Shown here: in pieces, positions 9,059 to 36,388 of the stretch | Numbering within the stretch: position 1 is the stretch's first letter | Layout of the letters: every line of letters begins with the position of its first letter | NCBI GenBank assembly: GCA_009602735.1 | Contig: WELA01003053.1 | Location: forward strand, 154,633 to 192,099 | Direction of reading: 5' to 3' | Length of the DNA: 37,467 bases | Source: Mesotaenium endlicherianum | Lineage: Eukaryota | Notes under the pieces: model-generated | The model's database searches: none | The model's input: only the letters and a program-made list of their open reading frames with translations | What the model was told of the DNA's origin: nothing | Program-made: the position numbers and the translations under genes

Positions 9059-9059
9059 G

Positions 9060-9071
9060 TGGTATCGGAGC
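9060..9071 (+). promoter_or_regulatory. A1 primer-binding site (tRNA-iMet type)
   Basis: TGGTATCGGAGC, 1 nt after the LTR. Confidence 0.9.
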
Positions 9072-9095
9072 TAGGCACTTTGGTAGCACAAGAAG

Positions 9096-14661: not shown

Positions 14662-14677
14662 CGTCGCTTTTTCTGTC

Positions 14678-14687
14678 GGGGGGGTGA
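14678..14687 (+). promoter_or_regulatory. A1 polypurine tract
   Basis: GGGGGGGTGA abutting the 3' LTR. Confidence 0.85.
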
Positions 14688-15182: not shown

Positions 15183-16271
15183 TTAACGACCGCCGACTTA
15201 TCTCAGCAAATTTTGCGAAGGTTAGACGTGGTTCATTGTGACACAGATTATTGCAGGATAAATAGTTGCAAGTTTTGTAATCTAGGTCTTGCATTTGTTG
15301 ATAGAAGAGCTTATGCAGCTTGCACAGCTTTGTACCTGTTTACGTCGGGCTTCAACAAGGCCGCCACTAGCCATTCATGCAAGCACATTATGGCAAAGAG
15401 CAACTAATAGAAGCTGACTACAGAACAATGCAAAGAATTGCTAATTGACCCAACAATGACCAAAAAAAAAATATGCTAGACATTGCTACCATGGGTCGTA
15501 GAAAGACATAAGAGCTGCAGAGCTAAGCTGTGTAGAAAGGCCAGCTCCGGCTAAAAGCACCGAGAAAACTATTATTGCTATAGCAAGATCACTTCTATTT
15601 TTGCGACAGCAAAGAAATGAGCATATTGCATCCAATAGTGTTGATTAGTGCAAGCCTAGAAAATTGTGCAGGGGGTGCTTAAATACTATGTCAAAATGAA
15701 AGGCAGATTGGAGAGTTGGGTTTCAAGCAGCATGAGGCACGACACAAATTTCTAGTGAACAGGGCTCCAATGCTTCAGCCAATGTAGATAGCTGATTGAA
15801 GTTGAAAGAAAACACTCGTTATTTTGAAGCATTCTTGCTGTCCCTACCTTTCTATCTGCCAGGTGTACTTACTTCCATGCAAGATCGTGCCTAATCTCAC
15901 TCATCTAAACTAAAGCTCCATTGTGAAAGAATATCCTGTAAGCAATGCACCAGCTCACTGAGGGTAACGTTCACATCATGAAGAAAGCTCCAAGAGCTAT
16001 CATTGTCGTAGAAAGCCGAAGCCAAATTTGATGTACTACAACGTCAATCTTCTTTAACAGCGGCTAACTTAGTTGCTCGACACCTCCTCAACCCCCCCCT
16101 TACCTCGCTCTTTTTCCTCCTCGCCCAAGCTGACCTCCCGTAACTGACCGGCTGACTGACTGGCAGCAATAAAAAGAGGCCAAAAACTGCAACTGTGCAG
16201 ATCGTGCGCGGCAGGCGGCCACCTCCTCTACGCCGCACACCCCCACAGCATCCCCTTGCTTGGAATGCTGC

Positions 16272-17360
16272 TCACTCAGGGGCCTCTGGCACCACCGGGC
16301 GTCTGCCGGCCCTGTCAATGAACCCTCTAGCCCTGGCGCGTGGCAATCGCACGCATCCTGATTTCCTATACACGGCATAGCTTTCGATCAGAAGGGACAG
16401 TGGCAAGAAAAGCTGAGCTCTGCCTTGTTGTCAAGAGTGAACATACCTTCTACGGTCGGCAGCATATCACACAGCTGTTGATGTGCACCCGTCGCATCCC
16501 TAGCCCACGTCACACCACGCAGTCGGGGGAGCCTGCTTCTCAAACTCTGCCTCATGGCATTCCACCTGCAGATCTCTAAAATGTGTAAGGGAGGCAAGGT
16601 TCACCCACGTCGGCGCCTCGAACGACTCAAGCTCCAGAGAGCGCACATCGGGCGTGTGCTTGAACAAGTCAAGGTGCATCTGGATTGCTGAAGAACCAGA
16701 TCCCTGCAAGCCATGGCAGCTCCACCACCCCCTTGGAGCTGTTCTGCATTAAATCTATCCTCTTTCACGACCACACAGAGCGCCTGCAGAGAGCTCATGA
16801 TTGCCAGGGAATTTGAGAAGGGCCTGCTGGCCTCGGAGGTCACAGCAATGGCGCCCTCATAGCTCCCCACTGACAAACTAGAAAAGTGATCGAGCTCGCT
16901 TAGCCACGGGGGCAGCACTTGCTTCAAGGCCTCGCTTGGCAGTGTCAGGCATAAAGACCCCAGTTTGGCAGCGAGCTCTTGCTGCTGTTGCTGCTGCTGC
17001 TGAAGGCTGACAATGGTGCAGCTCAGGGGTACAAAGCAGCGCTTGTCAGGTCGACCCACGTCGTCAACTCGATGGTACATATATCGCCAGTCATGACAAA
17101 GGTGCTCGAGGTTGGTGAGCCTCCCAAAGTCCAGCCCCTCCAGGCGGGCGTGTTTTACTTGCCAGGTGGTGGTTTGAGAATCATCTGAAGCATTGTCAAA
17201 CATAAGGTTCACACCCTCCAAGCTGGTCGTCCTCACGAGGAAGTAGGCGAGGCTATGAAAATCTTCCTTGTCGAAATTCATCAAAAAGTCGATATGTTAG
17301 CCGGGGCTTCTCCATCCTGGCAAGTGCTCTCATAAGCTTGGTCACCCCAAATTGGTGACA
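16272..17360 (-). pseudogene. F-box/LRR-like pseudogene, copy 2 (inverted paralog, 5' end cut off by B0)
   Basis: WQVKHARLEGLDFGRLT, LTLPSEALKQVLPPWL and APTWVNLA match copy 1; frameshifts and an internal deletion; 3' UTR similarity extends to ~16155. Confidence 0.85.
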
Positions 17361-17365
17361 TTGCA

Positions 17366-18132
17366 TGAAATGAATTGACTTACCAATAGGCAATTGACAA
17401 TTAATAAAAGATCTTTAAATCAGCAAGTAACCTTTATGGTATTTTTTGTTATCTGATTAAACAGCAAAAGACAAACGTACAAGCGGTGGACAATACTCCC
17501 AAGTCAAATGCAAGTAAACGTGCATCAATAATGCAATCGATAAACTCATACATAAGCAAGGCTAGAAGACAGTGCGTATCAATGGCTTCTCACCTTGAAT
17601 GGCTTCTCACCTTGGATTCAGATATCTCTCAGTAAGCGGTACAAGAGAGTTGGCCTCGTTTTCGAATGCCGAACTCGAGAGCAATACCTAGCATATGTAC
17701 ATGGAATGAGTTTACTGCTCAACGGCAAGTGCGATGGCACCGCCTACCCGGGAGTTAACCACGTAGGTAGGACCTCGACTAACCAAGTCCACAGCCATCT
17801 CCCATCATCCCAAATCGCCATCCACCTTAAGGGTGTCATTTGGCCACTCATCTAGCACACGACACTTAGATGCATAGCTAGGCAGTTCGCTGCTGCCGAG
17901 TACGGCAGCTAGCTGACTGTCAAAGAATGTGTTAGCACGCTGACCCAAGTCAATAGGCTGACCTAATTGACTTCAGCTTGCTACTCTCGGCTGAGTCAAT
18001 TAACTAAGTATTAAGTATCCAGCAGACTTAAATTCAGCAAACCAAAAATTAATTAAAGTTCAGCAGGTTGAATTCGTTTAACTATTATATTTAAATGAAT
18101 ATTATATCTATCCAATATACTGATTCATTACA
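17366..18132 (-). repeat. B0 3' LTR
   Basis: Minus strand TGTAATGAATCAG...ATTCATTTCA; internal 17-bp tandem duplication at 17581-17614. Confidence 0.9.
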
Positions 18133-18147
18133 ACCCCTCCAACTTAA
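18133..18147 (-). promoter_or_regulatory. B0 polypurine tract
   Basis: TTAAGTTGGAGGGGT directly before the LTR TG. Confidence 0.8.
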
Positions 18148-18242
18148 ATTGTTGTTGACTCGACTTTACTTCTATATTATTTACAGCCAAGTAACACACA
18201 TGCAACACAACCAACTGAATCGAAAACAAAGACAAAAGCAAA

Positions 18243-18634
18243 TTAAGTACCAGGGGCTTGATCTTCTGGGGAGCGAGACCTCGAACTGGATCTTTTTCTC
18301 TTGTCTGATGGTCTCCTAATACCTGGAGGCTCAGACCAGGGTGAATCGAGGGGTGAACGCAGCAACTGGGCAGCCTGCTCTTGCACTGTCTGCAAGTTGA
18401 TGGAGACCGCTCTCTCCTGTGCAGCTCTCCAACTGACAGGCACATACACTGGCATACCGGAGGGGTGCTGCATGACATGGGCTAATGGTACATGCCCTCT
18501 ATGAGGGGGAGGTGCTGGTTGCCCTCTGGCTGCCTCCTTGGCAGCCACTCTGTTTGCCCTGTCTGACTGAGTCTCACCTCCTCGGGTGGGACTCCTCCTG
18601 CTGAAACTTCCTAGCCACTGAAGATCTGGATCTC
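18243..18634 (-). CDS. C-terminal ~130 codons of the family B extra ORF (ORF3), truncated by the B1 LTR
   Basis: Open frame DPDLQWLGSFSRRSP...DKRKRSSSRSRSPEDQAPGT*, ending ~95 bp before the PPT. The first 12 aa of the track ORF come from LTR sequence. Confidence 0.65.
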
Positions 18635-19351
18635 TGTAATGAATTGGTATATAGGTAGATATAATGTTCATTTATATAGAATAGGTAATTAGGTTTAGCC
18701 TGCTGAACTTTAGTCACCATTCAGTCCGGTGGTATTTATACAATTATCAGTTTAATGACTCAGCCCAAAGCAGCAGGCTGAAGTCAACTTAGGCCAGCTT
18801 GCTGACACATTCTTTGACAGCCAGCTGACTTCCGTACTCGGTAGCAGCAAACTGCCTAGATATGCATCTAAGTGTGATATGCTAGATGAATGGCTAGAAG
18901 ACATCCTTGAGATGGATGGCGATTCGGGAAAATGGGAGATGGAGGTGGATTTGTTAGCCGAGGTCCTACCAACGTGGTTAACTCCCGGGTAGGTGGTGCC
19001 ATCGCACTTGCCGTTGAACAATAAACTCATTCCATGCACATAGGCTTGACATTGCTCTCGAGTTCGGCACTCGGAAACGAGGCCATCTCTCTTGTATTGC
19101 TTACTGAGAGATATCTGAATGCAAGGCGAGAAGCCATTGATACGCACTGTCTTCTAGCCTTGCTTATGTATGAGTTTACTGATTGCATGATTGATGTTAG
19201 TTTACTTGTATTTGACTCGCGAGTATTGTCCACTGCTAGTGTGTTGTCTTTTGCTGTTTAATCAATAAACAGAATATACCATAAAGATTACTCGCTGATA
19301 TAAAGATCTTCAGCAATTGTTCATCGCCTATTGCTAAGCCGATTCATTTCA
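18635..19351 (+). repeat. B1 5' LTR (~717 bp)
   Basis: TGTAATG...CATTTCA, followed by degenerate PBS TAGTATTGGAGC (19353-19364). Confidence 0.9.
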
Positions 19352-19384
19352 ATAGTATTGGAGCAGTTATCACAGTAGTCGTGT

Positions 19385-20910
19385 ATGGTAAGGACAAGGT
19401 CTCAAACTAGCAACTCCCAAGACATGGAGAACCAGGATAACGAGAATGTCAAAAACCAGGCTGAAAGTCATGTACCGGGAACCCGTACCTATTCTGAAGC
19501 AATGGCAGATACTGCAGCTAGAGAGGCTGCAGATGAGGCAGCTGCTATTGCCGCAGTTGCAGCACAGCAGGCTGAGGAGGAGAGCGTCAGATTAGAAGTT
19601 CAACGATTAGCAAAAGCTGCTGAAGAAGCAGAAAGAAGGGAAGGACAGCCAGCGGACGAGCGCACTGTCGAAGAACTTATGGCAAGAAGGGCCAATAATC
19701 TGAACCCACCTCCTGCTGTACAACTCAATGTGCCTCTAGGTCAAATTCGTGATCGGTTGAATGCGGCAGGAATTGCTGCTGCAGGAGCGAGAGGGAATGT
19801 TGAGGACATTGCTCAGCAAGTGAATGCCACTGCTGCTGCTGCATTTGCTGGGCTCCCACCTCAGATTGTAGATCTGGGAGTATTATTCGTGAAAATGCAA
19901 TAGCAAATGGCGAGCATGAATCAGTCCCAACAGGAGGACAAAAGAATCATGATGGCTTTGCTGCGTGACAGAGACCAACTGAGTTCTCATACCACTGGTG
20001 GTGGTGGCGGAGGGCCTAGTAAGCCTAAGCCAAAATCTCCCCAGGACTACGATCCTGAGGGAAACAAAAAGCATTACCTGATCAAGTTTCTCGCTGATGT
20101 TAAGCATTGGCTGGAGAACTACCTAGAACTGCAAGATTACAAGAAGGTCAGGCACACTGGTGCTCTACTGAAAGGCAATGCAGCAGGCTGGTGGTTGTGT
20201 TGGAAAGAAGAGCATAAGGCTCAGCACCTCGGTGACCCTACTTGGGTAGAGTTTGTCAAAAAACTGCATGAGAAGTTTGATGTCATCAATCACCAGGAGA
20301 AAGCTATCTATGCAATGATCTCCTTGACACTGAAGCAGACCACTTCAGTTGCTGAGTTTGCTCAGAAGTTCTAGGTGAACATGATGAAGCAGCCAGACTT
20401 GCCAGAGCGGTATAGGATAGCATACTTCAGGTATGGCTTGAAATCCGTAATCTCAGGTCATTTTGCTGAAAAGAAATATGAGAAACTGGCTGACCTGATC
20501 CAGGATGCTGATGCCTGGGATCAACAGCAGGTCAATCACAAGCGCCACAGTAATGCTTTGGTGTCTAAGATGTCAAAATGCCACACGGTTCCTACAATGC
20601 AATCGAAGGAGATCAGGCTGAGGACGATCCGGGTGATGAGTATGAGTATGAGTATAATGCTATGCAGTCTAAAGGGAGAGGTGGATACTCTCGAGGTGGC
20701 TATGGAAGAGGTGGTGGTAGGACTAAACCAAGACCAGCCTCATCAAAATCTGTTCGCTACCTTTGCCAGCAGTTAGGTCACTACAGAGAGCAGTGTCCAG
20801 TCAAGCACCTCCCAAAGGTCGAGAGAAAGGACCAGCCTTTAAAAGACAGCAACAGTCAGTACTCCAGTCTATTGACTGCGAGGATGCTAGAGATAGTGAG
20901 TCGTCACTAG
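19385..20910 (+). pseudogene. gag: B1 gag
   Basis: MVRTRSQ start; LKGNAAGWW; LKQTTSVAEF; RGG-rich segment and damaged knuckle (CQQLGHYREQC); in-frame TAG stops at 19901 and 20372 plus frameshifts. Confidence 0.85.
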
Positions 20911-21076
20911 CTGCCCTCGTAGCAGGTATTATGGGTCTTGCTGAACTGGATTCATTGTGCATGCCTGACAAACAGATAAAGGAGACCATCAACAATATAG
21001 ATCTCCAGAGAGTGCACACTCTATATGATCTTGTTCCACCTGATGTCCAACATTTCTTTGCTAAGTCAGGAGAACA

Positions 21077-22363
21077 ATGCGAAAGTCAAGAATAGATTTC
21101 CTACTGCATTGCATGATTGCAAGTAGGAAGGTGACGGCATTTGTTGACGGAGGGGCGTCACATACTTTTATCCATGAGGACTTAGTTAAGCGGCTAAGGC
21201 TGCCTACTGTCACCCAAGGGAATAGAAAAATATTCCTTCGAGATGCCTCAAGTATCCCGGGAGGAGTTGTAACCAAGCCTATTGAGGTCCAGTTAGGTTT
21301 TGGCATTGCAGTTCTAATTGAAACGCTTACATTTGAGGTACTCAACACTGGCTTCTATGATCTTGTGCTAGGCAGGTCTTGGTTTAATAGACATCAAGCT
21401 GAAGTGTGTTGGAGCAGAGGTACAGTTAAAGTGAGAGGAGCCAGTGATGGGCAGACTAACTTGGCACCCACCAGTGCTCTTCCTCTTGTCCTGTATGGAT
21501 GGCAAATGAAGGAAAAGAAGAGGCTTCCAGAAGGATGCAAGTTGCTGAATGCAATGGAGTTCGTCAAAAGCTGGAACCAAAAGGAAGACAGAATGTTCTG
21601 TCTGCTGCTAAGAGAGGTACGTCCTCAACCTGAAGAAGGGGTTGAGAAAAAGGTAAGCCCTCCGGAGCACCCTACTGCTGCAAAAACTGTTGCTCAGTAT
21701 ACTGATGTTTTTAATATGCCTCCAGGACTGCCCCCTAAGAGGGAAGTAGATCATAGGATTGATCTATTACCTGGGAGTCAGCCACCTTGGCAACGTACGT
21801 ATGGCTTGTCTTATGTGGAGAGCGAGGAGTTGAAAACACAGATTGCAGAGCTTGAGAAAAATGGTTATATTTCTCCCAGTAAATCACCTTACGGCGCACC
21901 CATCCTATTTGTTAAGAAAAAGGATGGCAGTATGCGGATGTGTGTGGATTACAGAGCCCTGAACAGAATTACAGTAAAGAACCAAGTATGCTTTACCCAG
22001 GATCGAAGACTTGCTTGATACCCTGTCTGGTGCTAAGGTGTTCAGTAAGATAGATCTCAAGAGTGGTTATCATCAAATCAGAATTGCTGAGGGGGATGAA
22101 CACAAGATTGCTTTCTGCACACGTTATGGACACTATGAGCTTAATGTGATGCCATTTGGACAGACTAATGCTCCCGCAACCTTCATGGGTGCTATATAAG
22201 ACATCTTCAGGCCTTTCTTGGATAAGTTTGTGCAAGTCTTCTTGAATGATATTTTAATTTTCACTAAAGATGAAGCTGAGCATGCTGAGCACTTAAAGAC
22301 AGTTATGGACACTCTGAGAAGGAATCAGTTATATGCTAAAATGAGCAAGTGTGATTTCTTTAA
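21077..22363 (+). pseudogene. pol: B1 pol segment 1 (protease, RT N-part)
   Basis: [42 protein letters not shown]; ends at the piggyBac TTAA. Confidence 0.9.
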
Positions 22364-24417
22364 CACTAGATAGCTCGGAGCATCATATGTGATGCAACTC
22401 ACACATTTTGATGCAACTACTTGCCCTCTTTGTCTCTACCATAAATCTCTGTAGCTTTGGGAGGTTCATGAGCAGGAATAGATTCAAACAAATAAGAAGA
22501 TTTTTTCATGTGAAGGACAATAGACAGAGAGCTTGTTTTCCTACATATTCTAGAGCATACAAGCTTTGGCAATTGCAACCTTTCACATATTTGTGCCTAG
22601 AGAACTTTGCCAAGTACTATAGTCCTGGTAGTACTCTCACAGTTGATGACAGAACCATTCCCATCCGAGATAGACAATGTCCTATTAGAGTGTACAATGC
22701 ATCAAAGCCATATAAATATGGTATAGAAGTCTCTACAATCTCTGATACAATTACATATTTCTATTATGCCTTCATCATATATGATAGAGTAAAGAAAGAA
22801 GGTGCAAAGACTGACATTGTGTTAGACTTAGTAGCTATGCTTCCTGTAGGCAGATGCTTCACTCTCATACTTGACAAAGGCTTCACCTCTCCACACCTCT
22901 TTTCTAAACTTGCACAACTAAGACATGAAGCCACCGGCACTGTAGTTTCCACTAGAAAGGACTACCCAAAACCGTTGTTATACATGAAGCCTGACACCCA
23001 CCCTAAAGGCTACACTCTTGCATCTTACAATGAGCAGCCCCCTATGGTAGCTGCTGTGTGGAATGATAAAGCTCCATGTGCTTTTTTGTCAACAGCCAAA
23101 GGGCTGGCCCCCACTATACGAAGTAGACGCAACGGAAAAGAAAAACTTAGAATTCCAGCCCCTGAGGTAGTAGAGCATTACAATATGTACAAAGATGCTG
23201 TTGATCAATATGATGCCTATTGTTTGAAGAGAGGTTACAGTGATGAGAGAGTCTTGGTTAACAAAAAAGTGGTGGCACAGGGCATATTGGGGCATTTGGG
23301 ATGGCCTTCTTGCCAATGTCTTCATCATGTACAAGATGGTGCTGACGAAGGCAGACAGTTTCGACACATACATGGACATCATGGATGACATGTGCTCTTC
23401 CAGCACCCTGATGAAGCAAGACCTAGTGGAGTGGCAACTAGGGTACTTGCAGCACAACCTACAGCAGAAGGCGGCTTCACTGGAAGACACTTTCCTACAG
23501 AAGTTGAGAAGAGGAAGTATTGTGTCGTGTGTGTTGCGGGTACGTTTGGTCAACGTGCCAATAGAAAGAGAGCTAAGTTTAGTGATTACAAGTGTATGTC
23601 TTGTAATGTGTTCTTGTGTGCTGCAACCTGCTTTTGTGTATACCACACCACCAGGGTTTTTGCCCATCTAGGTGAAGGATCTTTCAGGGAGAAGAGATTA
23701 TAGGAGACACAAATAGGCGAAAATCGACGAAACTGAGCTAATCTGGTAGAAGATGTAAATAATTGTAGTGAGCTTCACTGAGATGTATGAAGACATGACA
23801 TGAATGAGGTCATCATCTTCTATTTAATTTTATTTTTTTATTTTTAAAAATAAATTAATTGTTCACTTTGCCCTTGCATGATGATTACTTGTAATAATTA
23901 CATCATTTTCTAAATATTTAAAATTGAAAAAACAAATTTCAACAAGCCAAAGACACAAGTAAGTGGTTTGTTAAGTTTCGGATCCATGTGATGTGTGTGC
24001 ACTTCACAAAGTCATGCTATGTGAACTTGTCCATTAAAACGCTTGTTGCATCATGCTTTTTTTGCGCATCATATTTGGTGCATATATGCTAAGGGCCCCA
24101 AATTTTGCAATTGTAGTAACTACCTATATACATACTCCTGGCTAAATTCCCATGCCCTAGAACCTAACGTGTGTAGAGATATCAAAAACCAATTTCTGCC
24201 GTTTTGCCGCTAAATTTTCTGGTGTCATTCTTTTTCATTATTTCACTCTAAAACAAATTGATCTTTTAAATCAAAAGATATGGTCAGCAAGATTGTGATG
24301 TAAGCTTTCCAAATCTGTCCTTTATTATATGATTAGACTACTACTGTGATCACAAAAAAGTCAGGAGTAAAGGTAGTAGATGCATCAAAAGTGTGAGTTA
24401 CCGTGCGCAATCTAGTG
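22364..24417 (+). mobile_element. piggyBac-like DNA transposon (internally deleted)
   Basis: Flanks TTAA (22360-63) and TTAT (24418-21); termini CACTAGAT...ATCTAGTG; subterminal inverted repeats 22396-22421 / 24375-24399; host RT reads SKCDFF-MKSNEFLGY after removal. Confidence 0.9.
22456..23703 (+). pseudogene. piggyBac transposase (DDD core plus C-terminal Cys-rich domain), N-terminally deleted, two frameshifts
   Basis: MSRNRFKQIRRFFH; LTVDD; KPYKYGI; LILDKGFTS; WND; YNMYKDAVDQYD; KWWHR; CVVC..CMSCNVFLC..CF..YH. Confidence 0.9.
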
Positions 24418-25341
24418 TTATGAAAAGTAATGAATTCTTGGGCTACGTTGTCAGTGAAGAAGGCATCAGTGTGGATCCTAAGAACGTCCAGACCATAAGG
24501 GACTGGCCAGTACCACAGTCTGTCCCAAAAGTTAGATCTCGGAAGTTAGATCCTTCCTTGGGCAGGCTAATTATTACAGGAGATTCATTGAAAATAATTC
24601 TACAAAGGCCAGTAAGCTGACTGACCTTACTAAGGACATAGGGTATGTGTGGGGGAAAGAGCAGCAAGCTGCCTTCCAGACCCTCAAAGATGCTCTCTGT
24701 TCTGCCCCAATCTTAGCTGTGTATAACCCCAGCAAACCTGTGCAGGTGGTTACAGATGCTTCTGACTTTGCCATAGGTGCTATTTTGTTGCAGCCTGCTG
24801 ACAAAACCACAAAGGATGGTAAGGTAAAGCAGGAGTGGCACACGGTGCTGTATAAGACTATGAAATTCAACCCAGCTGAAATCAACTATTCTGTGCATGA
24901 TAACGAGCTGCTCGCTATCATTCATGTGCTCAAACAGTGGAGAGCATACTTACATGGTAAAGCTTTTAAGGTGATTACAGATCATCTAGCTCTGACTCAC
25001 TTTCAGAAGAAGTCCAAGCTGTCGAGGAGGGAGAACCGCTGGAGCCAGATGCTGGAGCAGTTCCAAGTCCAGATCGACTACAAACCAGGGAAGTTGAATC
25101 CTGCTGATGCACTCTCTAGAAGACCTGACTTGCAAGAAAGGAACTTTAGTCAGCATGCGGTCGATAAAGTCTTTTGTGCACTCACTTCACTAAAGGTGAA
25201 AAGTTCCTTCCTTGAACAACTTAGGAAAGCCTACCTTTCTGACCTAACATTTGAGCCCAGCCCCACTGATGGTGTGTGTTGTGCTACTGCACTCGGGTAT
25301 AGGCCAAAGGGGGGGGTCTGGGTAACTGAAACCACTTCAGC
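24418..25341 (+). pseudogene. pol: B1 pol segment 2 (RT C-part, RNase H)
   Basis: EFLGYVVS; VVTDASDFAIGAIL; ELLAII; ITDH; KPGKLNPADALSR. Confidence 0.9.
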
Positions 25342-25844
25342 TGTAGTGAAACAGATAGATAAAGTACTTAGTAAAACAGAATACTTTATCTATTCAAGAC
25401 AAGGATCTTTGAACACAAGTGGTAGCTTCTTGAAAGAGAGATGGCTTCTTGAAAGTTAATATATTTCTGGATTTTGGCAAGTACAAGAGTGATTCTGGAA
25501 TGTCTTTCTATGTTCTAGCTCTTGTTTATATACTTGCTACATAAGTAATTTCTAGGAAGGTGTATGTTGATGTGTTGGCACCCAACACATCCCAAAACTT
25601 GCCACCTCTTTCTAGAATAATGTACACATGTCCTTTTGACCTAAAAATGGCACATTTGACTTTTGCCACATGGAGTTCTTCTAGGTCTTTCCTCTAACTT
25701 CGAAAATGCCTTGGAAGGTTCAAAGGACATGAACCAAGTTACTAGAGTACCTATTCACACTTGACTCCACACAATACTACTCCAAATATATTTGAAAACA
25801 TTAAAATATATGCAAACTAATATATAATAACTCAAATCACTACA
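25342..25844 (-). repeat. A2 3' LTR
   Basis: Direct repeat of 31519-32021; PPT (C-run on + strand) adjacent at 25845-25854. Confidence 0.95.
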
Positions 25845-26613
25845 TCACCCCCCCGATAGAAAAAGCGACGTCTCGGCGCGTCAAGTCAGGTCTTACACAT
25901 GTGGAGCAAACTAGTCAACAGTTTCAAGTCAGATGCCACACATGTGAAGAGGACTAGTCAAAGGCGCCAAGTCAGGTGCTACACATGTAAGGTAGACTAG
26001 GCAAGGTCGTAGGTGGTGTGACCTTATTGGCTAGCCTACTCCTTAATGATAAAGAAAATTGTACAAGTTGGCCCAGAATCTGCCACGAACTCAAAAATTC
26101 ATAGCGGCCACAGAACTGCTCCAAATCTGAAAATTCGAGTGCCAGACGGACCGCGTCGGAGAACTCTACCGGGTCACCAAATTTGAGAGCATTCTCATTT
26201 CTGGAGTGTCGTTGAGAGCTGAGAGAGTAGGCACTCCTCCAAATCTGTGCAGAAACTTCTGAAAATCATAAGTCCTTCTATACTTCTCCAAATTCTGCAA
26301 ACTAAGTCTCAAACTGGGCGCTGTAAGATGTTCTACCAGAGTCTTGAGTTTCAGAGCATTCCAAGTTCAGGGGAGGGCACAATGTCAGAAGGCATATTCT
26401 GCCCTAACAATGCCAGCAGCCTGACCCCCTTCTACTTAGAGCATCATATCTCTCTCACCAGTGCTCCAAATTGAGCAAACTTGGACTCTAAATGACCGGC
26501 TACTCATGGACTACAGCCAGGTAAATTTTCAGAATTTATTATGCAGAGACCTATCACCAGTAGCAGTTTTAGTTTTCTGTCCAGAAACTGCGAGAAGAGA
26601 AGAGTGTCTAATG

Positions 26614-29600
26614 TCAATTTTTCCTCTTTCTTGTTCTTGCAGGCTGCCTCCAAGGGGTCTTCTGCTGCTTCTTGATGGTGGCAGGCTGCCTCCCTGAAGT
26701 CTTCGGGCTTCTAGTAGAGAGACTTGGGGCTGGTCCAAGATGGGGGTTGGCGGCATGGAAGCGCTTCAACTTTCTCTGAACTTTGTCAAGGTAGTGCGCC
26801 GCCACCCAACTATTCTCCGAATCTGGATATCCTTTCCACTTGATCAAGTATTGCTGCTGTCTCCTGAAATTTCTCATAGCCACTATGTCTTCCACTTCGT
26901 ACTCCAAATGATCATCCACTATTGTTGGGGCTGGTGGGGTTGTCACACGTCCTGGGAACTTGTTGTCGGGTTGCACATATGGCTTGAAGAGGGAAGCGTG
27001 GAATACGGGGTCGATGTGCATAGTCTGGGGAAGTTCTAGCTTGAAAGCAACGGGGTTGACTTGCTGGATAATCTTGAAGGGTCCCAAATACTTGGGAGAG
27101 AACTTGCTGCCGGCAGGCCTGTTGTTCAGGGAAATGTTCTTGGATGATAGTAACACGTTGTCACCCACTCTGTACGTAATTTCTCTTCTGGATCTGTTCG
27201 CCACTCTTGCTTGAGCATCTTGCGCGTGTTGTAGAGCTTTCTTCGCTGCTGTAAGGGCTGCTTCTAATGTCTCCATAAAATCTGTGGCTGCAGGTACTTC
27301 ATCATGGCCAGCCGTGAAGCTCAGTGGCGTGGTCGGATGGAAGCCATAGTTGAGGAAGAATGGGGACTCTTGGGTAGAGGCCTGCGTAGTGTTGTTGTAG
27401 GCAAACTCGAGGGGGGTCAAGTACATGTCCCAGTCTTGCTCGAGGGTAGACACGTAGGCCTTTAGAGAGGTCTTTAGGGTACGATTCATACGCTCGGTTT
27501 GCCCATCTGATTGTGGGTGGTAGGCAGTAGACATATCCAGCGATGTACCCAAGTTCTTGAAGAGATTTTTCCAGAAATGGCTTGTGAATCTTGGATCTCT
27601 ATCTGACACAATTCTTGATGGTAGTCCATGGAGTCGGAAGATGTTGTCAAAGATGAGTCTTGCAAGTTGTGGTGCTGTAGCCTTAGTCGTCGTGGGAATA
27701 AAATGAGCCATCTTGGTAAGTCTGTCCACCACCGTGAGTATTGCATTATGGCCTCGAGGTGTCACGGGCAAGTCCACGATAAGGTCCATTGAGATGTCCG
27801 TCCATTGTCTTTCGGGGATTGGTAGTGGTTGGAGGAGTCCTCCCGCCTTTTGCGATGATGGCTTGATTCTTTGGCATGTGTCACAGCTCCTGCAGTACTC
27901 CTTGACTTGCTTAGACATGCCTGGCCAACAATAAGTCCTAGCTAGAACGCCCGTGGTCCTTAGGATTCCAAAGTGTCCTCCAAGAGGGTTGTCGTGTGCT
28001 TCTCGTAGAAGCAAGAGCCGGAGGTCTATGTCATTAGGAACACATCTCTGGCCCGTATCTTGCCTCACCCAATAATTGCCTTCTTGCTTCTTGCATGGGT
28101 CCAAGGCTGCTTCTCCGTTCTTGTAGTAAGGGTCTCTTTCATAGGCGGCTGAAAATCGAGCTTCCAGATCTGTCTTCAGGGATACCATCACTGCATTTAA
28201 TTGCAGTCTTGAGAGGGGGTCAGCCGGGTTTGTCTTGCCGGGCTGGTACTGAATCGTGATGTTGTATTGTTGCAAGTATCCGCTCCATCTTGCTTGTCTC
28301 CTTGAGAGATACGGCTGCGTTTGGAGGTGCTTTAACGCCTCGTGGTCCGTGGTGACCAGTACTTTGCGTCCTTCAACGTAGCAGCGCCAAACCTTCAAGG
28401 CATGTACAATCGCCAATGCCTCTCGCTCCGTGGTTGTATAATTTTGCTCGGCTGGATTTAGCTTCCTTGACTCGTAGGCGATGGGCTGCAGTCCCTTGCC
28501 TTGGTCTTGAAGCAGGATTGCTCCTATTGCATAGGAAGATGCATCGGTGATGACGTGGAAGGGCCAATCTGGGTTTGGACTTGGGAGTGTGAGCACCGGG
28601 GATGTGGTCAATCTTCGCTTTAACTCTTGAAATGCCTCTTCCTCTTTCTCGGTCCATGTATATAGCCTGTCCTTCTTGAGTAGATCTGTCAGGGGGGCTG
28701 CTATGTGCGAGAAGCCTTGGATGAATTTTCTGTACCAATTGGCAAATCCCAAGAATGACTGGAGTTCTTTCTTGGTCGTGGGGGTTGGCCATTCCTCCAC
28801 CACCGTGGTCTTCTTGGGGTCTATCTTGATGCCATCAGCAGTCACGTGGAGACCTAGGAACTCCACTTCTTGTTTGGCAAACTCGCATTTTGACTCCTTC
28901 GCAAACAGCTTGTTTTGCTTCAATACTTCAAGGACTTCTTTCAAGTGTCTCGCATGCTCTTCAAGGGTCTTGCTGTAGATAAGGATGTCATCGATGAATA
29001 CCACCACAAATCTGTCCAACATGGGCTGAAATATGGTGTTCATCATAGTCATGAAAGTTGCTGGCGCGTTGGTGAGTCCAAATGGCAGGACCATGAACTC
29101 AAAATGTCCATATCTTGTCCTGAATGCCGTCTTCTCTATGTCCGGTTCTGCGATGCGAATCTGGTGGTAGCCGCTCCGTAAGTCAATCTTCGTGAAGTAC
29201 TTGGCTCCAACCAGCCGGTCCATGAGCTCATCCATGCGCGGCAGCGGGTATCGATTCTTGATGGTGATCTTGTTGAGGGCGCGATAGTCCACACACATCC
29301 TCAAGGTACCATCTTTCTTCTTGACAAATAGCACCGGGGCTCCAAATGGCGACTTGCTAGGTCGAATGAAGCCATGCTCCAGTAGCTCCTTGATTTGCTT
29401 CTTGACTTCGTCTAGCTCCGTGTATGACATTTTGAACGTAGGCCGAGAGATGGGCTTGCTTCCGGGCTCCAACTCTATCTTGTGGTCTACGAATCTTTTG
29501 GGGGGTAGGCCCTTGGGCAATTCCGGGGAGAACACTTCTTTGTAGTCCTCTAAGACTTCTTGTATCTCCTTGGGAACGGGGCTGCCTTCTTGACTCTCGA

Positions 29601-30279
29601 TGTCTTTCTTGATGTCTTTTGGCGTGATCAAGGCCAAAAGAAGCTCGTGTCCCTTCCTCACAAGTCTCTTGAGTTGGAGGGCGGACAATAGTATCTCGTG
29701 TGCCGGCTTCTGGATGTCTTGGGTCTGGATATTCTGGATTGCGCGCAAAATACAGATTCTTGAAGTGATGTCATTCTTGATCTTGATAGTACCGGTCCTC
29801 CAATCAACTTGGGGGTTGTGCTTGGTCAACCAAGGCGTCCCTAGGATGACGTCGTACTTGCCCAATTGCATGGGGGAGAACACTACTCTATCCTTGAAGG
29901 ACTTGATAGAGAGTGCCAAGGGGTACGTCTTCTTGGAAGGGGTAGTATAGGAGAATCCATCGGGCATCATAATCTCCTCGTCGTGGTCAAGAGTTCGCAT
30001 AGTAATACCGTGCTTGGTGGCAAAATCTGCAGCAATGAAGTTGCCTTGAGCTCCGCTATCCACCAAGATGTGGACCTTCTCTCCTCCAAGGTAACCTCTC
30101 AAACTCATTGGGGCTGGAACGTCGTCTTCAACGGGGGTCTCCACCTCACTTGGCGTGTTGCCTTCTCGTGAAGTGGGTCTTGGGGTGGTAGGCTCCTGGC
30201 CTACCGGCGCTGTCCGTTTTTTGACAACTTTTTGGGGCATGAAAGTGCACGATGGCCCTTTTCCTTGCAATAAAAGCAT
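26614..30279 (-). CDS. pol: A2 pol polyprotein (PR-RT-RH-INT-chromodomain), open; probably entered by -1 frameshift at ~30216-30222
   Basis: 1221-aa ORF: LVDSGA, FIDDIL, TDAS, H..H..C..C, ISMD/SDRD/QTER (DDE), [20 protein letters not shown]. Confidence 0.96.
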
Positions 30280-31481
30280 AGTCCAGCCGTCATGAGAGCT
30301 TCTTTTTCAGCCGGGGAGAGTCTTGCTTTCACTCCTTGCTGGTTTCTTGCATCATAAGTGTCATTGGAGGGTCTTCCACTCTTCCGGGCAGCCGCGGGGT
30401 CCCTTTTAATAACTCCGATTTCCATGGGTGTGGGTCCAGATTCGGATGTGGAAGGGGCTGCGTACACCCGCGTCGTCGGTACCCGTGAAGATGAAGGCAC
30501 GGAGTGCTTGAAATCCAAGGTATCCACCTTTTGGGCCACTTCAATGATCTTTGAGAAGTCCGTCAAGTCGCGTAACTCCACTTCCTTTGCCACCTTGGGT
30601 TTGAGGCCAAAGATGTAGCGGTCAATCTTCTCCTCGAGAGACATGTTGGGGATCTCAAGAGTGAGGGCGTGAAATCTGGATGTATACTCTTGAACGGACG
30701 TCGTTTGCTTGAGATGGTGGAGCTTTCCTCGGGCAATCTTCTCCGCATTGATGGGCATGAATTGCTTCTTGAGGGCCTCACGAAAATCTGCCCATCTTGC
30801 ATATGATGGTGGGGGCTCTTGGCCGAGCATGGGGTGCGCCATAGCTTGATATATAGCCGCTTGATAGTTACGCCACCATGATGTTGCTGCTCCTCTAAGT
30901 AAGGTAACGGCAAAGGGAACGTAGTCCTCCTCGGGTACTTCAAGGAATGCGAGGTACGTCTCCACTTGGTAGAGCCATAAATTCAGGTTGGCACCTTTCC
31001 CGGGGTTGAAAGTGTCGGGTTTGCCGGGCTTGATGAGTTTCCTTGCTCTCGTTGGCTCTTGTGGAGGCGCTTGAGCCGGGGCTGGATTTTGAGCATTGCT
31101 CGCAATAGGGGCAACCATGGCAGCCATAGCTTCTCTTGACGCTTGCACGGTTGCTTCATAGGTGGCCAAGCCCACTTGGTTGTGGACGGTCATTAGGAAG
31201 GCTGCCCACTCATTTGCGGGAACTCCTTGTGGTGGGGTCAACTTTGCTATAGCGGCTGCCACGGGATGTGACGGTGCTCCTCCTTGTGGTTCTTCTTGTT
31301 GTTGGAGATTTCCTTGAGTAGGCTCTTCTATCGACGCTGGAGGAGGGTGTGCTCCTCCTTGTGGTGCTTCTTGTTATTGCAGATTTTCTTGAGTGGGCTC
31401 TCCCATCGGCGCTGGAGGAGGGTGTCTTGGAGAGGAAGGGCTTCCTTCGAAAGCTTGCTGTTGGTCTTGAGGATCGGCCAT
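30201..31481 (-). CDS. gag: A2 gag (ATG 31481; single premature TAA at 31374-31376; open 31262-30201)
   Basis: MADPQDQQQ... in frame with the track [26 protein letters not shown] knuckle. Confidence 0.9.
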
Positions 31482-31505
31482 CTTCTTGTGCTACCAAAGT
31501 GCCTA

Positions 31506-31517
31506 GCTCCGATACCA
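31506..31517 (-). promoter_or_regulatory. A2 primer-binding site (tRNA-iMet type)
   Basis: TGGTATCGGAGC on the minus strand. Confidence 0.9.
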
Positions 31518-31518
31518 C

Positions 31519-32021
31519 TGTAGTGAAACAGATAGATAAAGTACTTAGTAAAACAGAATACTTTATCTATTCAAGACAAGGATCTTTGAACACAAGTGGT
31601 AGCTTCTTGAAAGAGAGATGGCTTCTTGAAAGTTAATATATTTCTGGATTTTGGCAAGTACAAGAGTGATTCTGGAATGTCTTTCTATGTTCTAGCTCTT
31701 GTTTATATACTTGCTACATAAGTAATTTCTAGGAAGGTGTATGTTGATGTGTTGGCACCCAACACATCCCAAAACTTGCCACCTCTTTCTAGAATAATGT
31801 ACACATGTCCTTTTGACCTAAAAATGGCACATCTGACTTTTGCCACATGGAGTTCTTCTAGGTCTTTCCTCTAACTTCGAAAATGCCTTGGAAGGTTCAA
31901 AGGACATGAACCAAGTTACTAGAGTACCTATTCACACTTGACTCCACACCATACGACTGCAAATATATTTGAAAACATTAAAATATATGCAAACTAATGT
32001 ATAATAATTCAAATCACTACA
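31519..32021 (-). repeat. A2 5' LTR
   Basis: TGTAGT...ACTACA, next to the PBS. Confidence 0.95.
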
Positions 32022-33353
32022 TCAGGCAAGCTGAAGCTGGTCATTCCTAATAACTTGGAAATAAGGTCCCTCGTATTGGGTCAAGCGCATGACAGTTTCA
32101 TGGGTGGGCATTTGGGGCAGGCCAAAACTGTTGGCAAACTGGCAAAACATTATCATTGGGAGGGGTTGCCCCGTGAGGTCTTGAAATATGTGAAGTCCTG
32201 TGATCAGTGTCAAAGCAATAAGTCTAGGCACACACCACCGGGAGGTCTCTTGCAATCGCTGCCCATCCCAGCGGGACGCTGGAAAACTATATCCATGGAC
32301 TTGGTGGTCACACTGCCACAAACTGCTAATGGGCATGATTCGATACTGGTAGTCGTGGATAAGCTGACAAAAATGGTCATTTTCATCCCCACAACTGTCA
32401 AAGTAACTGCACTCGAAACAGCGAGACAGTTCTACAACCATGTAGTATGCCAACATGGGCTACCCTCTAATATTATCTCAGACAGAGACTCAAAATTTAC
32501 CTCTAAGTTCTGGAGAGCTTTAATGGGGTTAATGGGAGTCGAACAGCTGCTCAGCACAGCAAACCACCCTCAGACTGATGGGCAGATTGAAAGAACTAAC
32601 CGAGTTTTGCAAGAGGTACTGAGAGCCTATATTAACCAAAAACAAGATAATTGGGATGACCTGTTACCTCAAATCCAGTTTGCGGACAACAGTGCGGTGC
32701 ACGCGTCAACGGGCAAGACTCCTTTTGAAATCAATCTGGGTAGAGTCCCTAAGTCTCCTTCAGATGTACTAGGGGAGTCTTTAACTCACCCTGTGGGGAT
32801 TGACAATCCCGTGTCTCTCCAGTTAACTCAGGAGTTTGCCGACACCCTGTCAGAAGTCCAACACAATCTGCACAAAGCCCAAGGAAACCAACAAAAATAC
32901 GCTAATCAACACCGTTGGGAGCTGACATTTTCAGAGGGGGATTTGGTCAAACTGCATTCTCAACACCTGTACCTGCCTGGTGTGGTAAAGAAGAAGCTTG
33001 GTCCGATCTGGGTCGGTCCATATTCGGTGGTGCGTCGTGTCGATCACAATGCTTACAAACTAAACATGTCAGCGGAATACAAGGGTCACCCAGTTTTTAT
33101 TGTCTCCTTCCTGGAACCATACATCAAAGGTGACACACTGTTCACAGGTCGGTTACCTGTCCAACGGGGACCGGTCCCCGCTGTCCGGGAAGGTGACCCT
33201 GAGGAATATGAGATTGATGAGATTTTAGAAGCTCGTTCTGTTCCTCGATCATCTAAATATGTCATGAAATATCTGGTCAGATGGAAGGGTTACAATGCCT
33301 CTGGCGACACCTGGGAATTTGAGGACCATTTGACCAATGCCAAAGGGCGTTGA
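32022..33353 (+). CDS. pol: B1 pol segment 3 (integrase plus chromodomain), open frame but severed from upstream pol
   Basis: AHD..GHLG..CDQCQ; ISMD; SDRD; HPQTDGQIER; GPY; YEIDEIL..YLVRWKGY..TWE. Confidence 0.92.
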   Translation, partial: SGKLKLVIPNNLEIRSLVLGQAHDSFMGGHLGQAKTVGKLAKHYHWEGLPREVLKYVKSCDQCQSNKSRHTPPGGLLQSLPIPAGRWKTISMDLVVTLPQTANGHDSILVVVDKLTKMVIFIPTTVKVTALETARQFYNHVVCQHGLPSNIISDRDSKFTSKFWRALMGLMGVEQLLSTANHPQTDGQIERTNRVLQEVLRAYINQKQDNWDDLLPQIQFADNSAVHASTGKTPFEINLGRVPKSPSDVLGESLTHPVGIDNPVSLQLTQEFADTLSEVQHNLHKAQGNQQKYANQHRWELTFSEGDLVKLHSQHLYLPGVVKKKLGPIWVGPYSVVRRVDHNAYKLNMSAEYKGHPVFIVSFLEPYIKGDTLFTGRLPVQRGPVPAVREGDPEEYEIDEILEARSVPRSSKYVMKYLVRWKGYNASGDTWEFEDHLTNAKGR

Positions 33354-33808
33354 AACGTTTTTACCTTTGGAAGGCTGGGAAACCTCCCTAAATGTCATTT
33401 GAGATGACATGGGAAGGTGACAGGAGGTCCTGTCTCCATTTAAGTTGGGGGGAAAATGTGGCCAAACGTGGCCTAAAGTGACAGTTAGTGACAGAAAGCG
33501 ACAGTTTTTGACATTGAGTGACAGTTTTGACAGGCAGCCCAGTAACAGTTGAAACAGGCAACTCACCTTAAACATTAAGTTGGAGGGAGTGGGATAAACA
33601 TCTCGAAAACTAGCCAATTACCGATTGCCGTTGCATATTCATCCCTGACAATTGCGCTCACACTCACTTCTCTCTCAAGCACACTCGCACTTTCAATTTA
33701 CATACACCAGGTATTGCATGCCCTAACTCCCTCTACTACGTTCTTCCCTGTCAAAGTACTCAATCCTGTGCATGATATCATAACTACATTAACCCCATTG
33801 TCGTATGA

Positions 33809-34933
33809 ATGAGCGGGATGACTCAATTGTCTGAACTCAAGAGGAAAACAAGGGCGGATGAGGCACAGGCGGAGTACAAGGAGTTCCATGGCGACATCGA
33901 ATCATCCTCCATCTCTTCTCGAGAATTAGAGCAACTTCGACTACAGCGAGAGGCTCAGAAGAGGAAGGAGGAGGAAGAACAGGCCAGGTTGAGACAGGAG
34001 GAACAGGACAGAAAAGATGCAGAGGAAGCTAAGAAAGCGGAGGAACAAAGGTTGGCTGAGGAGAGGCAGGAGCAGCAGGTCGAGGAGGAACAGAGGAGAA
34101 TCATTAGTTATCGCTACACGGTGATGGGCAAGGGCTTTGATCTTTTGGAGGAGGCCTTCAAGTACGCCCAGAGGAACCAAAGTGAATCACGGAGGGACAT
34201 ACTGCAGTGGGAAGGGGAGACAGCCCAAGATTTTGACAAGTACATAGAAGTCAGCACAGGGCTTCTACTGTACCATGACTATGCCAAGACGGTGGGGTAT
34301 ACGATCCGAGAGGCCAAAGCATTGGCCCACATAGGTGAATCTGAAACGGTGCCAATACCTGGGATCTGGGGCACAGACAGGGTCATCGGATTGATCCCTA
34401 TGCATACAAACAGCTTCAAGGATGCCACTTCCCACAACCAATTCAAGGCCATGTATAACGAGGTGGAGAGAAGAAGCTGGGAGTTCTTGGCAAGGGAGGC
34501 CAACCAGTTGGATTTCTCAGGTCACAAGTACCCCTGTACTTTGAAGAGGACGGATCCTGCTTTCTTTCTACAGCCCACTGACTGGCGCTGGATGACCATC
34601 ACCATGAAGGAACAGCAAAATGACAGAGCTGAGGAAGACGATTTCCTGGCAGATTTGCAGGGGAAGATAGTGCTGCCACCTCACATTGCAGCATGGGACC
34701 CACGGCTGGATGGAGTCAGGAACTGCATAAGTCAGGAGACACACGAGGATAAGACCAGGGCCAAAGATTCTTTCTCTAAGGGGAAGCATGCTTATGCAAA
34801 TTGGGCAAGTAAGCAAGGGGAGAAAGACCTGTATGCAGTCAGGACCCAACAACCTCCACCTGCACCCAAAAGGGGGAGGTCAGTGGGATACTCTTTTTCT
34901 CGAGAACGGTTGGAGGAGATGATTAGAGTGTAA
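33809..34933 (+). CDS. Family B extra ORF (ORF3), N-terminal 373 codons; unknown function; truncated by the B2 LTR
   Basis: 374-aa open frame with an E/K/R/Q coiled-coil-like N-part and a mixed, globular-looking core. The final V* is supplied by the LTR start (G-TGTAA). Confidence 0.75.
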   Translation: MSGMTQLSELKRKTRADEAQAEYKEFHGDIESSSISSRELEQLRLQREAQKRKEEEEQARLRQEEQDRKDAEEAKKAEEQRLAEERQEQQVEEEQRRIISYRYTVMGKGFDLLEEAFKYAQRNQSESRRDILQWEGETAQDFDKYIEVSTGLLLYHDYAKTVGYTIREAKALAHIGESETVPIPGIWGTDRVIGLIPMHTNSFKDATSHNQFKAMYNEVERRSWEFLAREANQLDFSGHKYPCTLKRTDPAFFLQPTDWRWMTITMKEQQNDRAEEDDFLADLQGKIVLPPHIAAWDPRLDGVRNCISQETHEDKTRAKDSFSKGKHAYANWASKQGEKDLYAVRTQQPPPAPKRGRSVGYSFSRERLEEMIRV

Positions 34934-35647
34934 TGAATCAGTGTATCGGTTGATATAATGTTCATGTAAATATAGTAGTTAAATAAGTTCAGCCTGCTGA
35001 ATCCTAGTTAACATTCAGTCGGCTGGACTTGATTAAAATATCAGTTTAATGACTCAGCCAGAAGCAACAGGCTGAAGTCAACTGAAGTCAGCTTGCTAAC
35101 ACATTCTTTGACAGCCAGCTGACTTTTGTACTCGGTAGCAGCGAACTGCCTCGATATGCATCTAAGTGTGGTGTGCTAGATGGATGGTCAGATGACATCC
35201 TTAGGATGGATGGCAATTTGGGATGATGGGAGATGGCCGTGGATTTGGTTAACCGAGGTCCTACCAACGTGGTTAACTCCCGGGTAGGCGGTGCCATCGC
35301 ACTGGCCGTTGAACAATAAACTCATTCCATGTACATATGCTAGGTATTGCTATCGAGTTCGGCATTCGGAAACGAGGCCAACTCTCTTGTACTGCTTACT
35401 GAGAGATATCTGGATCCAAGGCAAGAAGCCATTGATATGCACTGTCTTCTAGCCTTGCTTATGTATGAGTTTACTGATTTGCATTATTGATGCTAGTTAC
35501 TTGCATTTGATTTGCGTGTATTGTCCACTGCTAGTGTGTTGTTCTTTGCTGTTAAACCAATTAACAAAAAACATCGTAAAGATTACTTGCTGATAAAAAG
35601 ATCTTAATTAATTGTTAGTCGCCTAATTGGTAAGTCGATTCATTGCA
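34929..35647 (+). repeat. B2 5' LTR (~719 bp)
   Basis: TGTAATG...CATTGCA; homologous to, but clearly diverged from, the B0 and B1 LTRs. Confidence 0.9.
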
Positions 35648-35681
35648 GTGGTACCGGAGCAGTTATCACAGTCTTCTTTGT

Positions 35682-36388
35682 ATGGTAAGGACAAGGTCTC
35701 AAACTAGCAACTCCCGAGACATGGAGAACCAGGATAACGAGAATGTCCAAAATCAGGATGAAAGCCATGTAGCGGGAACCCGTACCTATTCTGAAGCAGT
35801 GGCAGATACTGCAGCTAGAGAGGCTGCAAATGAGGCAACTGCTATTGTCGCAGTCGCAGCATAGCAGGCTGAGGAGGAGAGCGTTTGATTAGAAGCTGAA
35901 CGATTAGCAAAAGCTGCTGAAGAAGCAGAAAGAAAGGAAGGCCAACGGACGAGCGCACCGTCGAAGAACGTATGGCATCAAGGGCCAATATTCTGAACCC
36001 ACCTCCTGCTGTACAACTCAATGTGCCCCTAGGTCAAATTCGTGACCGGCTGAATACGGCAAGAATTCCCGCTGCAGGAGCAAGAGGGACTGTTGAGGAC
36101 ACTACTCAGCAAGTTGATGCCACTGCTACTGCTGCAATTGCTAGACTCCCACCTCAGAGTGTGGATTTGGAAGCATTGTTCGTGCAAATGCAATCGCAAA
36201 TGGCGAGCATGTATCATTCCCAATAGGAGGACAAAAGAATCATAATGTCTCTGCTGCGGGACAGAGACCAACTGAGTTCTCAAGCCACTGGTGGTGGTGG
36301 CAGAGGGCCTAGTAAGCCCAAGCCAAAACCTCCCCAGGATTATGATCCTGAGGGGAACAAAAAGTATTACCTGATCAAGTTTCTCGCT
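35682..36388 (+). pseudogene. gag: B2 gag 5' part
   Basis: MVRTRSQTSNS...; several stops and a frameshift. Confidence 0.88.

What the first reader, a model, noticed from the sequence alone, without database searches (positions are those of the whole stretch)
18620..34940. Two family-B insertions appear to hit the same site of family-B ORF3: possible self-targeting hotspot
Seen: the B1 5' LTR starts at 18635 after ...AGATCTGGATCTC, inside B0 ORF3 in opposite orientation. The B2 5' LTR starts at 34929 after ...GAGATGATTAGAG, inside B1 ORF3 in the same orientation. The ORF3 pieces show no long overlap but share 3 nt and keep frame. This reconstructs an empty site GATGATTAGAGATCCAGATC with 5-bp TSDs TAGAG and GAGAT, only 2 bp apart. 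Inference: site-preferential integration into its own accessory gene, giving a safe-haven nest that also knocks out ORF3 of the resident copy. An alternative is a single aberrant event (autointegration or two-donor integration) followed by recombination. A 3-nt in-frame match could also be chance.
Basis: inference. Interest (0 to 1): 0.85.

Follow-up and report, generated by a model that had tools for sequence, protein, structure and literature searches.

The report
Retrotransposons nested in their extra gene
Three diverged copies of one jumping-gene family sit inside one another, and both inner copies broke an extra gene of unknown function; this is likely ordinary nesting, and the idea that both hit the same base is untested (about 1 in 4 for a true hotspot).

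Summary
The coordinates hold. Family B is a Ty3/gypsy chromovirus. B1's 5' LTR (18635) abuts, inverted, a 130-codon ORF tail of B0. B2's 5' LTR (34929) abuts the 373-codon ORF head of B1. The two ends share 3 nt in frame.

That match is weak evidence: random cut pairs give it 1% of the time, and 3.9% with B1's end fixed. No intact ORF3 or homologue was obtained, so adjacency of the two pieces is untested (about 0.4).

The three LTRs are 86-87% alike, far more diverged than B1's decay explains. They come from separate cDNAs, which argues against one autointegration event and against a shared-LTR tandem. Family B is not an obligate site-specific element: B0 sits in an F-box-like gene at an unrelated sequence, and 65 contigs show mixed LTR flanks.

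Best reading (0.6): two independent self-nestings into the 3' non-pol region, a regional bias already described for plant gypsy elements. A base-precise self-targeting hotspot remains open (0.25). It is cheap to test on the assembly and would be new for a chromovirus.

The parts
16270..17365 (-). 3' part of an F-box-like/LRR-type host gene paralogue (approximate 3' end) into which B0 inserted; starts with the presumed TSD copy at 17365-17361
   Evidence: 74-76% inverted match to the paralogue at 6504-7817; alignment up to the LTR end; weak F-box-like hit on the paralogue
17366..18132 (-). B0 3' LTR (767 bp, TG..CA), with three 12-17 bp insertions relative to B1 and B2
18133..18150 (-). B0 polypurine tract directly before the 3' LTR
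18244..18634 (-). B0 extra-ORF tail, 130 codons, Pro/Arg/Ser-rich, cut by B1
   Evidence: open-frame test 97 of 20,000 shuffles; no family or homologue
18635..19351 (+). B1 5' LTR (717 bp), inverted relative to B0; followed by a decayed PBS
19424..33353 (+). B1 gag-pol (capsid, protease, RT, RNase H, integrase, chromodomain), with stops and frameshifts, interrupted twice
   Evidence: Pfam; tblastn
22364..24417 (+). piggyBac-like DNA transposon (PF13843, terminal inverted repeats) inside B1 RT
25342..32021 (-). family-A chromovirus copy A2 inside B1 pol; LTRs 98.8% alike, 5-bp TSD with 1 mismatch
33354..33808 (+). B1 spacer between pol and the extra ORF: two PPT-like tracts (about 33438-33452 and 33575-33587) and a short 10/20-bp tandem repeat (33475-33533)
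33809..34928 (+). B1 extra-ORF head, 373 codons from an ATG, predicted N-terminal coiled coil, cut by B2; function unknown
   Evidence: no family; no credible homologue; model of the first 303 aa confident only for the helix at about residues 41-90; relatives at about 86% in DNA runs
34929..35647 (+). B2 5' LTR (719 bp), same orientation as B1, followed by a PBS
35721..36388 (+). B2 gag 5' part (3 stops, 1 frameshift), cut by another, unidentified insertion from 36389

Best explanation
Three separately born copies of one chromovirus family are nested, B1 inside B0 and B2 inside B1, likely by two independent ordinary integrations that both fell in the family's 3' extra-ORF region without base-level self-targeting. 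Shown: the junctions, the element anatomy, the LTR divergence, and five insertions into B copies in this one cluster (B1, B2, A2, the piggyBac-like element and the unidentified insertion at 36389). Inferred: a methyl-lysine-reading chromodomain steers integrase to silenced transposon chromatin, so resident copies are common targets, and the pol-to-3'LTR region is a favoured landing zone. The 3-nt in-frame match would then be chance, with a gap between the pieces, or less often a coincidence of sites.
For: LTRs are mutually 85.6-87.2% alike (K2P 0.14-0.16) against 0.057 and 0.012 for the sister LTRs of A1 and A2. Four B1 coding pieces (1,317 codons) hold no internal stop, where 7% neutral decay predicts about 11 and 2% about 3 (the pieces were delimited as open frames, and pol has 1 stop and 2 frameshifts at or between them). 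So most LTR divergence predates insertion. The 3-nt match occurs in 1.0-3.9% of random pairs. Targets share no sequence (0, 5, 4 of 20), and there is no exact Pol III A or B box within 150 nt of any cut and no tRNA in the window. Run X2 has 65 contigs whose sequence before the LTR start is heterogeneous (agreement 0.37). Same-family nesting and a 3'UTR preference are described for plant gypsy elements, and similar nested pairs there differed by at least 50 bp (PMC6911290, section 7 read; passages). The B1 chromodomain keeps the three cage aromatics by eye; this type binds H3K9me in MAGGY (PMC3350952, passages).
Against: Both B-into-B insertions (2 of 2) but none of 3 other-family insertions lie in the extra ORF, which is about 17% of a minimum 8,767-bp element. 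The pieces are complementary, with an in-frame 3-nt match that is 25- to 100-fold more expected if they are adjacent. My Bayes sketch gives P(adjacent) 0.17-0.85 over the priors I chose. An 8-mer of the family's PPT starts 20 nt before the B2 cut; 1.5-2.6% of random cuts have such a hit (noticed post hoc). B2's gag is more decayed than B1's although B2 should be younger (3 stops and 1 frameshift against 1 stop; rough P=0.006 from a hand-counted rate).
Confidence: 0.6

Rival explanations
1. Base-level self-targeting hotspot: family-B integrase repeatedly cuts within a few bases of one site in its own extra ORF. The cause would be a positioned nucleosome or a tethering protein, not sequence recognition. 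It is a preference, not an obligate target.
For: 3-nt in-frame match implying cuts 2 bp apart; 2 of 2 B insertions in the ORF; Ty3-type elements can be precise to 1-4 bp through tethering (PMC5006619, passages); PPT-core 8-mer next to the cut.
Against: n=2; chance rate 1-4%; B0 lies in a host gene with an unrelated flank, and there is no Pol III box at either cut; heterogeneous LTR flanks; plant gypsy TSDs are near random (PMC6317226, passages).
Confidence: 0.25
2. One aberrant integration event at a single cut, either two donors' U3 ends or an autointegration circle, followed by recombination with a resident copy. Both junctions are of the U3-end type that deletion and inversion circles produce.
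For: Both junctions use an LTR left end on opposite sides of a putative single cut. A PPT-like tract lies next to the cut, and Ty1 autointegrates near its central PPT flap (as cited in PMC7197481, passages; the primary paper was not held). B2 looks older than B1.
Against: The simple inversion-circle or same-cDNA model needs sister LTRs, but B0/B1 K=0.16 with three long indels against low B1 decay. A single cut predicts a 5-bp duplication, and 5-nt overlap matches 3 of 5. After the head comes a forward LTR with PBS, not a reversed LTR. Rescue needs extra recombination steps.
Confidence: 0.1
3. No insertion at 34929: the LTR is B1's own 3' LTR shared with B2 in a tandem, the ORF ends naturally at the in-frame stop two codons into the LTR, and B0's tail belongs to another subfamily.
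For: The frame stops at once inside the LTR (1 in 3 by chance); a PPT-like 8-mer lies upstream; shared-LTR tandems are common (PMC5932611, passages).
Against: The 8-mer starts 20 nt before the LTR, against 11 nt in the true PPT. B1 and B2 LTRs are least alike at their 5' end (48 and 46 of 60 in the first two blocks), where sisters should agree.
Confidence: 0.05

Closest known systems
Same-family nesting ('autoinsertion') of plant Ty3/gypsy elements with 3'UTR preference (PMC6911290; passages and section 7 read)
   Same: A gypsy element inserted into older copies of its own family, in the region between pol and the 3' LTR, in both orientations.
   Different: There the bias is regional, and similar nested pairs differed by at least 50 bp. 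Here the region holds a long ORF, and the two cuts may be 2 bp apart (untested).
Non-seed-plant and algal chromoviruses with a group I chromodomain (Chlamyvir, Tcn1, Galadriel; PMC6317226 and PMC3350952, passages)
   Same: gag-PR-RT-RH-INT-chromodomain order, TG..CA LTRs, aromatic-cage chromodomain.
   Different: It has a TGG-type PBS (most Tcn1 elements lack a tRNA PBS) and a forward 3' extra ORF of 500 or more codons if head and tail are one gene. The passages seen link extra ORFs mainly to SIRE and non-chromoviruses. Clade not determined.
Position-precise Ty3/gypsy elements: yeast Ty3, Dictyostelium DGLT-A (PMC5006619, passages)
   Same: They show that a gypsy integrase can hit within a few bases repeatedly without a sequence motif.
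   Different: Their targets are host tRNA genes. No tRNA gene or exact Pol III box was found here, and precision here is not shown.
Autointegration circles of Ty1 and Arabidopsis SISYPHUS (PMC7197481, passages); double insertion at one site (PMC5932611, passages)
   Same: LTR-end junctions into the element's own internal sequence in both orientations.
   Different: Those are extrachromosomal products of one cDNA with identical LTRs, or adjacent tandems. Here there are three diverged LTRs in the chromosome.

Membership tests
Ty3/gypsy chromovirus (family B) | gag, protease, RT, RNase H, integrase in gypsy order | tested here: met
   Pfam (capsid, protease, RNase H, integrase); RT by tblastn to A2 pol
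Ty3/gypsy chromovirus (family B) | chromodomain at the integrase C-terminus | tested here: met
   PF00385 E=2.8e-7, above cut-off; cage aromatics present by eye
Ty3/gypsy chromovirus (family B) | TG..CA LTRs, PBS and PPT | tested here: met
   seen across three partial copies, since no copy is complete in the window
Ty3/gypsy chromovirus (family B) | 4-6 bp target-site duplication on both sides | not testable with these tools
   only one end of each B copy lies in the window; no genome is held
Named chromovirus clade (Chlamyvir, Tcn1, Galadriel) | placement in the RT/RH/INT tree | not tested
   no reference set was fetched
Site-specific or self-targeting retroelement | many independent insertions at one position | tested here: inconclusive
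   n=2, adjacency unproven, chance 1-4%; the rows shown do not cover this junction
Site-specific or self-targeting retroelement | obligate or shared target sequence | tested here: not met
   flanks share 0, 5 and 4 of 20; B0 in an F-box-like gene; 65 contigs with mixed flanks
Ty3-type Pol III-tethered targeting | tRNA gene or A/B boxes beside the site | tested here: not met
   (exact matches to recalled box patterns only)
Single-cDNA autointegration product | sister LTRs and a 5-bp duplication across the two junctions | tested here: not met
   K2P 0.16 with long indels; 3 of 5 match
Shared-LTR tandem | PPT directly before the middle LTR, whose 5' part is sister to the first LTR | tested here: not met

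The most novel reading that the evidence does not exclude
A chromovirus family carries an orphan accessory gene of 500 or more codons and preferentially integrates, to within about 2 bp and without sequence specificity, into one PPT-like site of that gene in resident copies. This builds Russian-doll nests and knocks out the resident copy's accessory gene while sparing its gag-pol.
Probability: 0.22. Interest if true: 0.8.

Novelty: new member of a known kind. Interest (0 to 1): 0.4.

Why it matters
As it stands, this is a decayed transposon nest plus an uncharacterised extra ORF in a chromovirus, of modest interest to specialists. If the hotspot is real, it would be a base-precise case of an LTR retrotransposon targeting its own family. 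My searches listed regional same-family nesting and host-gene targeting but no such case. These were listing-level searches of an open-access library only, and no supplements were read. A real hotspot would give a handle on how chromovirus integrase picks sites and on competition between copies, and one pass over the assembly would settle it.

Tried and rejected
No genome is held for the window.

Homologue searches for the extra ORF found nothing usable. Head, 205-653 aa: 0 of 5,291 candidates. Head residues 230-373 against shorter proteins: 0 of 2. Tail against longer proteins: 0 of 696. Metagenome contigs: 0 of 109 stretches confirmed. LTR motif in metagenome contigs: 0. Integrase in viral contigs: 0 of 1. 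Atlas, tail only: no usable hit. Pfam, NCBIfam and PHROGs: nothing at cut-off.

The full-library search with the first 303 aa gave 1 hit (P0001, E=6e-11). I rejected it: it is a TPR-repeat protein, and the score sums 7 weak matches of one 30-40 aa stretch.

The single-sequence structure model was poor (mean pLDDT 47), so no fold search was run.

Rfam on 17300-19500: none. Earlier scan findings: none. No RNA holder was listed in the run index.

Read depth is much lower over the extra ORF than over pol or the LTR, but the tool says depth is no copy number, so I did not use it. RNA reads of X24 cover the ORF head at mostly under 95% likeness; that shows relatives in that sample, not expression of this copy.

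dN/dS for B1/B2 gag was 0.52 (CI 0.27-0.97) and 0.62 (CI 0.19-3.42), against 0.19-0.25 for A1/A2 pol. This is too wide to separate subfamily divergence from decay. The direction of LTR substitutions was uninformative.

A microhomology deletion between the ORF's PPT-like 8-mer and the real PPT does not fit, because 12 ORF bases remain before the LTR.
Full report
Setting. The window is eukaryotic DNA: a many-intron TPR gene at 1-4620 on the minus strand (TPR matches; the likeness to CTR9/VIP6 is recalled, from no call), then a transposon cluster. The chromodomain type points to an alga or non-seed plant (PMC6317226, passages); the host was not identified. Two chromovirus families occur: A (A1 at 8557-15182, A2 at 25342-32021) and B. 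No genome is held, so everything right of 37467 is unseen.

Observation. The stated coordinates are right. On the minus strand B0 shows a 130-codon ORF tail from 18634, a T-rich UTR, a PPT and a 3' LTR ending at 17366 inside an F-box-like gene. B1 starts at 18635 in the other orientation and runs LTR, PBS, gag, pol with chromodomain, a 455-bp spacer and a 373-codon ORF head. The head stops at the first base of B2's LTR (34929), which has a PBS and gag behind it. B1 also carries a piggyBac-like element (22364-24417) and A2, and B2's gag is cut at 36388. The tail is probably coding (97 of 20,000 shuffles). Head and tail lie between pol and the 3' LTR in the same sense, so one gene is the natural reading, but this is inference.

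How strong is the 3-nt match? Exact overlaps exist at 1 and 3 nt, frames agree at 0, 3 and 6, and a 5-nt overlap matches 3 of 5. An in-frame overlap of 3 or more occurs in 1.0% of 393,851 random cut pairs, in 14 of 361 with the head's end fixed, and in 11 of 1,091 with the tail's start fixed. This is real but modest evidence, picked out after the fact. A Bayes sketch with my own priors for a hotspot (0.002-0.05) gave 0.17-0.85 for adjacency and 0.08-0.82 for a hotspot. I settle on about 0.4 and 0.25; these are judgements, not measurements.

The direct test was not achieved. No protein or contig collection held a relative of the ORF. The one hit in 1.84 billion proteins was a TPR-repeat artefact. 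Public runs hold the family (best share 0.43, four runs of one sample). Laying 4 of the 24 listed runs on 32100-35720 showed many diverged relatives, including ORF-head relatives at about 86%. The loose-end table showed only 24 rows, with 1,933 more not shown, and none covered the ORF side of the junction. Continuity of the ORF therefore stays open.

One event or several? The three LTRs are 85.6-87.2% alike (K2P 0.161, 0.143, 0.144). Sister LTRs of A1 and A2 give 0.057 and 0.012. An equal-distance star could reflect old decay of once-identical LTRs. However, four B1 coding pieces totalling 1,317 codons have no internal stop, where 7% decay predicts about 11. These pieces were delimited as open frames; pol has 1 stop and 2 frameshifts elsewhere, and gag has 2-3 stops. 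B1 has therefore decayed by only a few percent, and the LTRs came from different cDNAs. That argues against an inversion circle or a same-cDNA event, which also predicts a 5-bp duplication and a reversed LTR after the head. A shared-LTR tandem fails because no PPT abuts 34929 and the two LTRs differ most at their 5' ends. A two-donor cut with later recombination cannot be excluded. Against my reading, B2's gag is more damaged than B1's; a defective copy moved in trans would explain this, but so would a more complex history.

Is family B site-specific? Not in any obligate sense. B0 sits in a host gene. The three visible flanks share 0, 5 and 4 of 20 bases, and there is no tRNA gene or exact Pol III box nearby. 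In run X2, 65 contigs leave the LTR start into sequence unlike the laid stretch, with agreement 0.37; some of these could be junctions of the B0/B1 type, which that table cannot show. A partial preference remains possible. One lead: the core of the family's PPT recurs 20 nt before the B2 cut (1.5-2.6% by chance). In Ty1, autointegration occurs near a central PPT flap (cited in PMC7197481, passages; primary paper not seen). A flap exists in cDNA, not in the chromosome, so this lead favours the aberrant-event rival more than a chromosomal hotspot.

Mechanism. Most likely, ordinary integrase reactions were steered by a group I chromodomain into silenced transposon chromatin (inferred from PMC3350952, passages, and the aromatics seen). 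Same-family nesting and a 3' regional bias are as described for plant gypsy elements (PMC6911290). Both B insertions do destroy the resident's extra ORF, but B1's gag-pol is also broken by other lesions, so no adaptive reading can be drawn. The ORF's function is unknown: a predicted coiled coil at residues of about 41-90, an unresolved middle and a low-complexity end. My best guess, untested, is a fast-evolving accessory protein like other orphan plant eORFs (PMC6317226, passages).

Verdict. This is a new member of a known kind, with an unproven but easily testable hotspot claim. Papers were seen as listings and passages, plus one full section; no supplements were read, and the eORF and TSD tables in the supplements of PMC6317226 and PMC6911290 may bear on the novelty claim.

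Noticed in passing
window 33354-33808: The spacer holds two further copies of the family's PPT core around a short tandem repeat. A 1,512-bp contig of run X1 matches pol and stops matching at 33456, just after the first tract, so relatives without this ORF module seem to exist and the ORF may be an acquired cassette.
   Followed up: partly
window 33809-34928 and 18244-18634: Orphan forward extra ORF in a chromovirus, with no credible homologue among 1.84 billion protein representatives (first 303 aa searched); relatives occur in DNA and RNA runs.
   Followed up: partly
window 35721-36388: B2 gag has 3 stops and a frameshift in about 222 codons against 1 stop in B1, the reverse of the expected age order.
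   Followed up: partly
window 22364-24417: piggyBac-like element (PF13843, E=1e-36) with inverted termini and a TTAA/TTAT flank inside B1's RT.
   Followed up: partly
window 36389-37467: Unidentified insertion in B2 gag, with a 34-bp tandem array from about 36959 to the window end.
   Followed up: no
window 25342-32021: Young family-A chromovirus copy with open gag (390 aa) and pol (1,230 aa) frames and LTRs 98.8% alike; A1 (8557-15182) is older, and its flanks show no clean 5-bp duplication.
   Followed up: partly
window 6260-7700 (+) and 17365-16270 (-): Inverted pair of decayed, apparently intronless F-box-like/LRR-type paralogues, 74-76% alike.
   Followed up: no
window 1-4620 (-): Many-intron TPR gene; resembles CTR9/VIP6 from memory, only the TPR match was shown. 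An 8-bp tandem repeat lies at 3761-3864.
   Followed up: no
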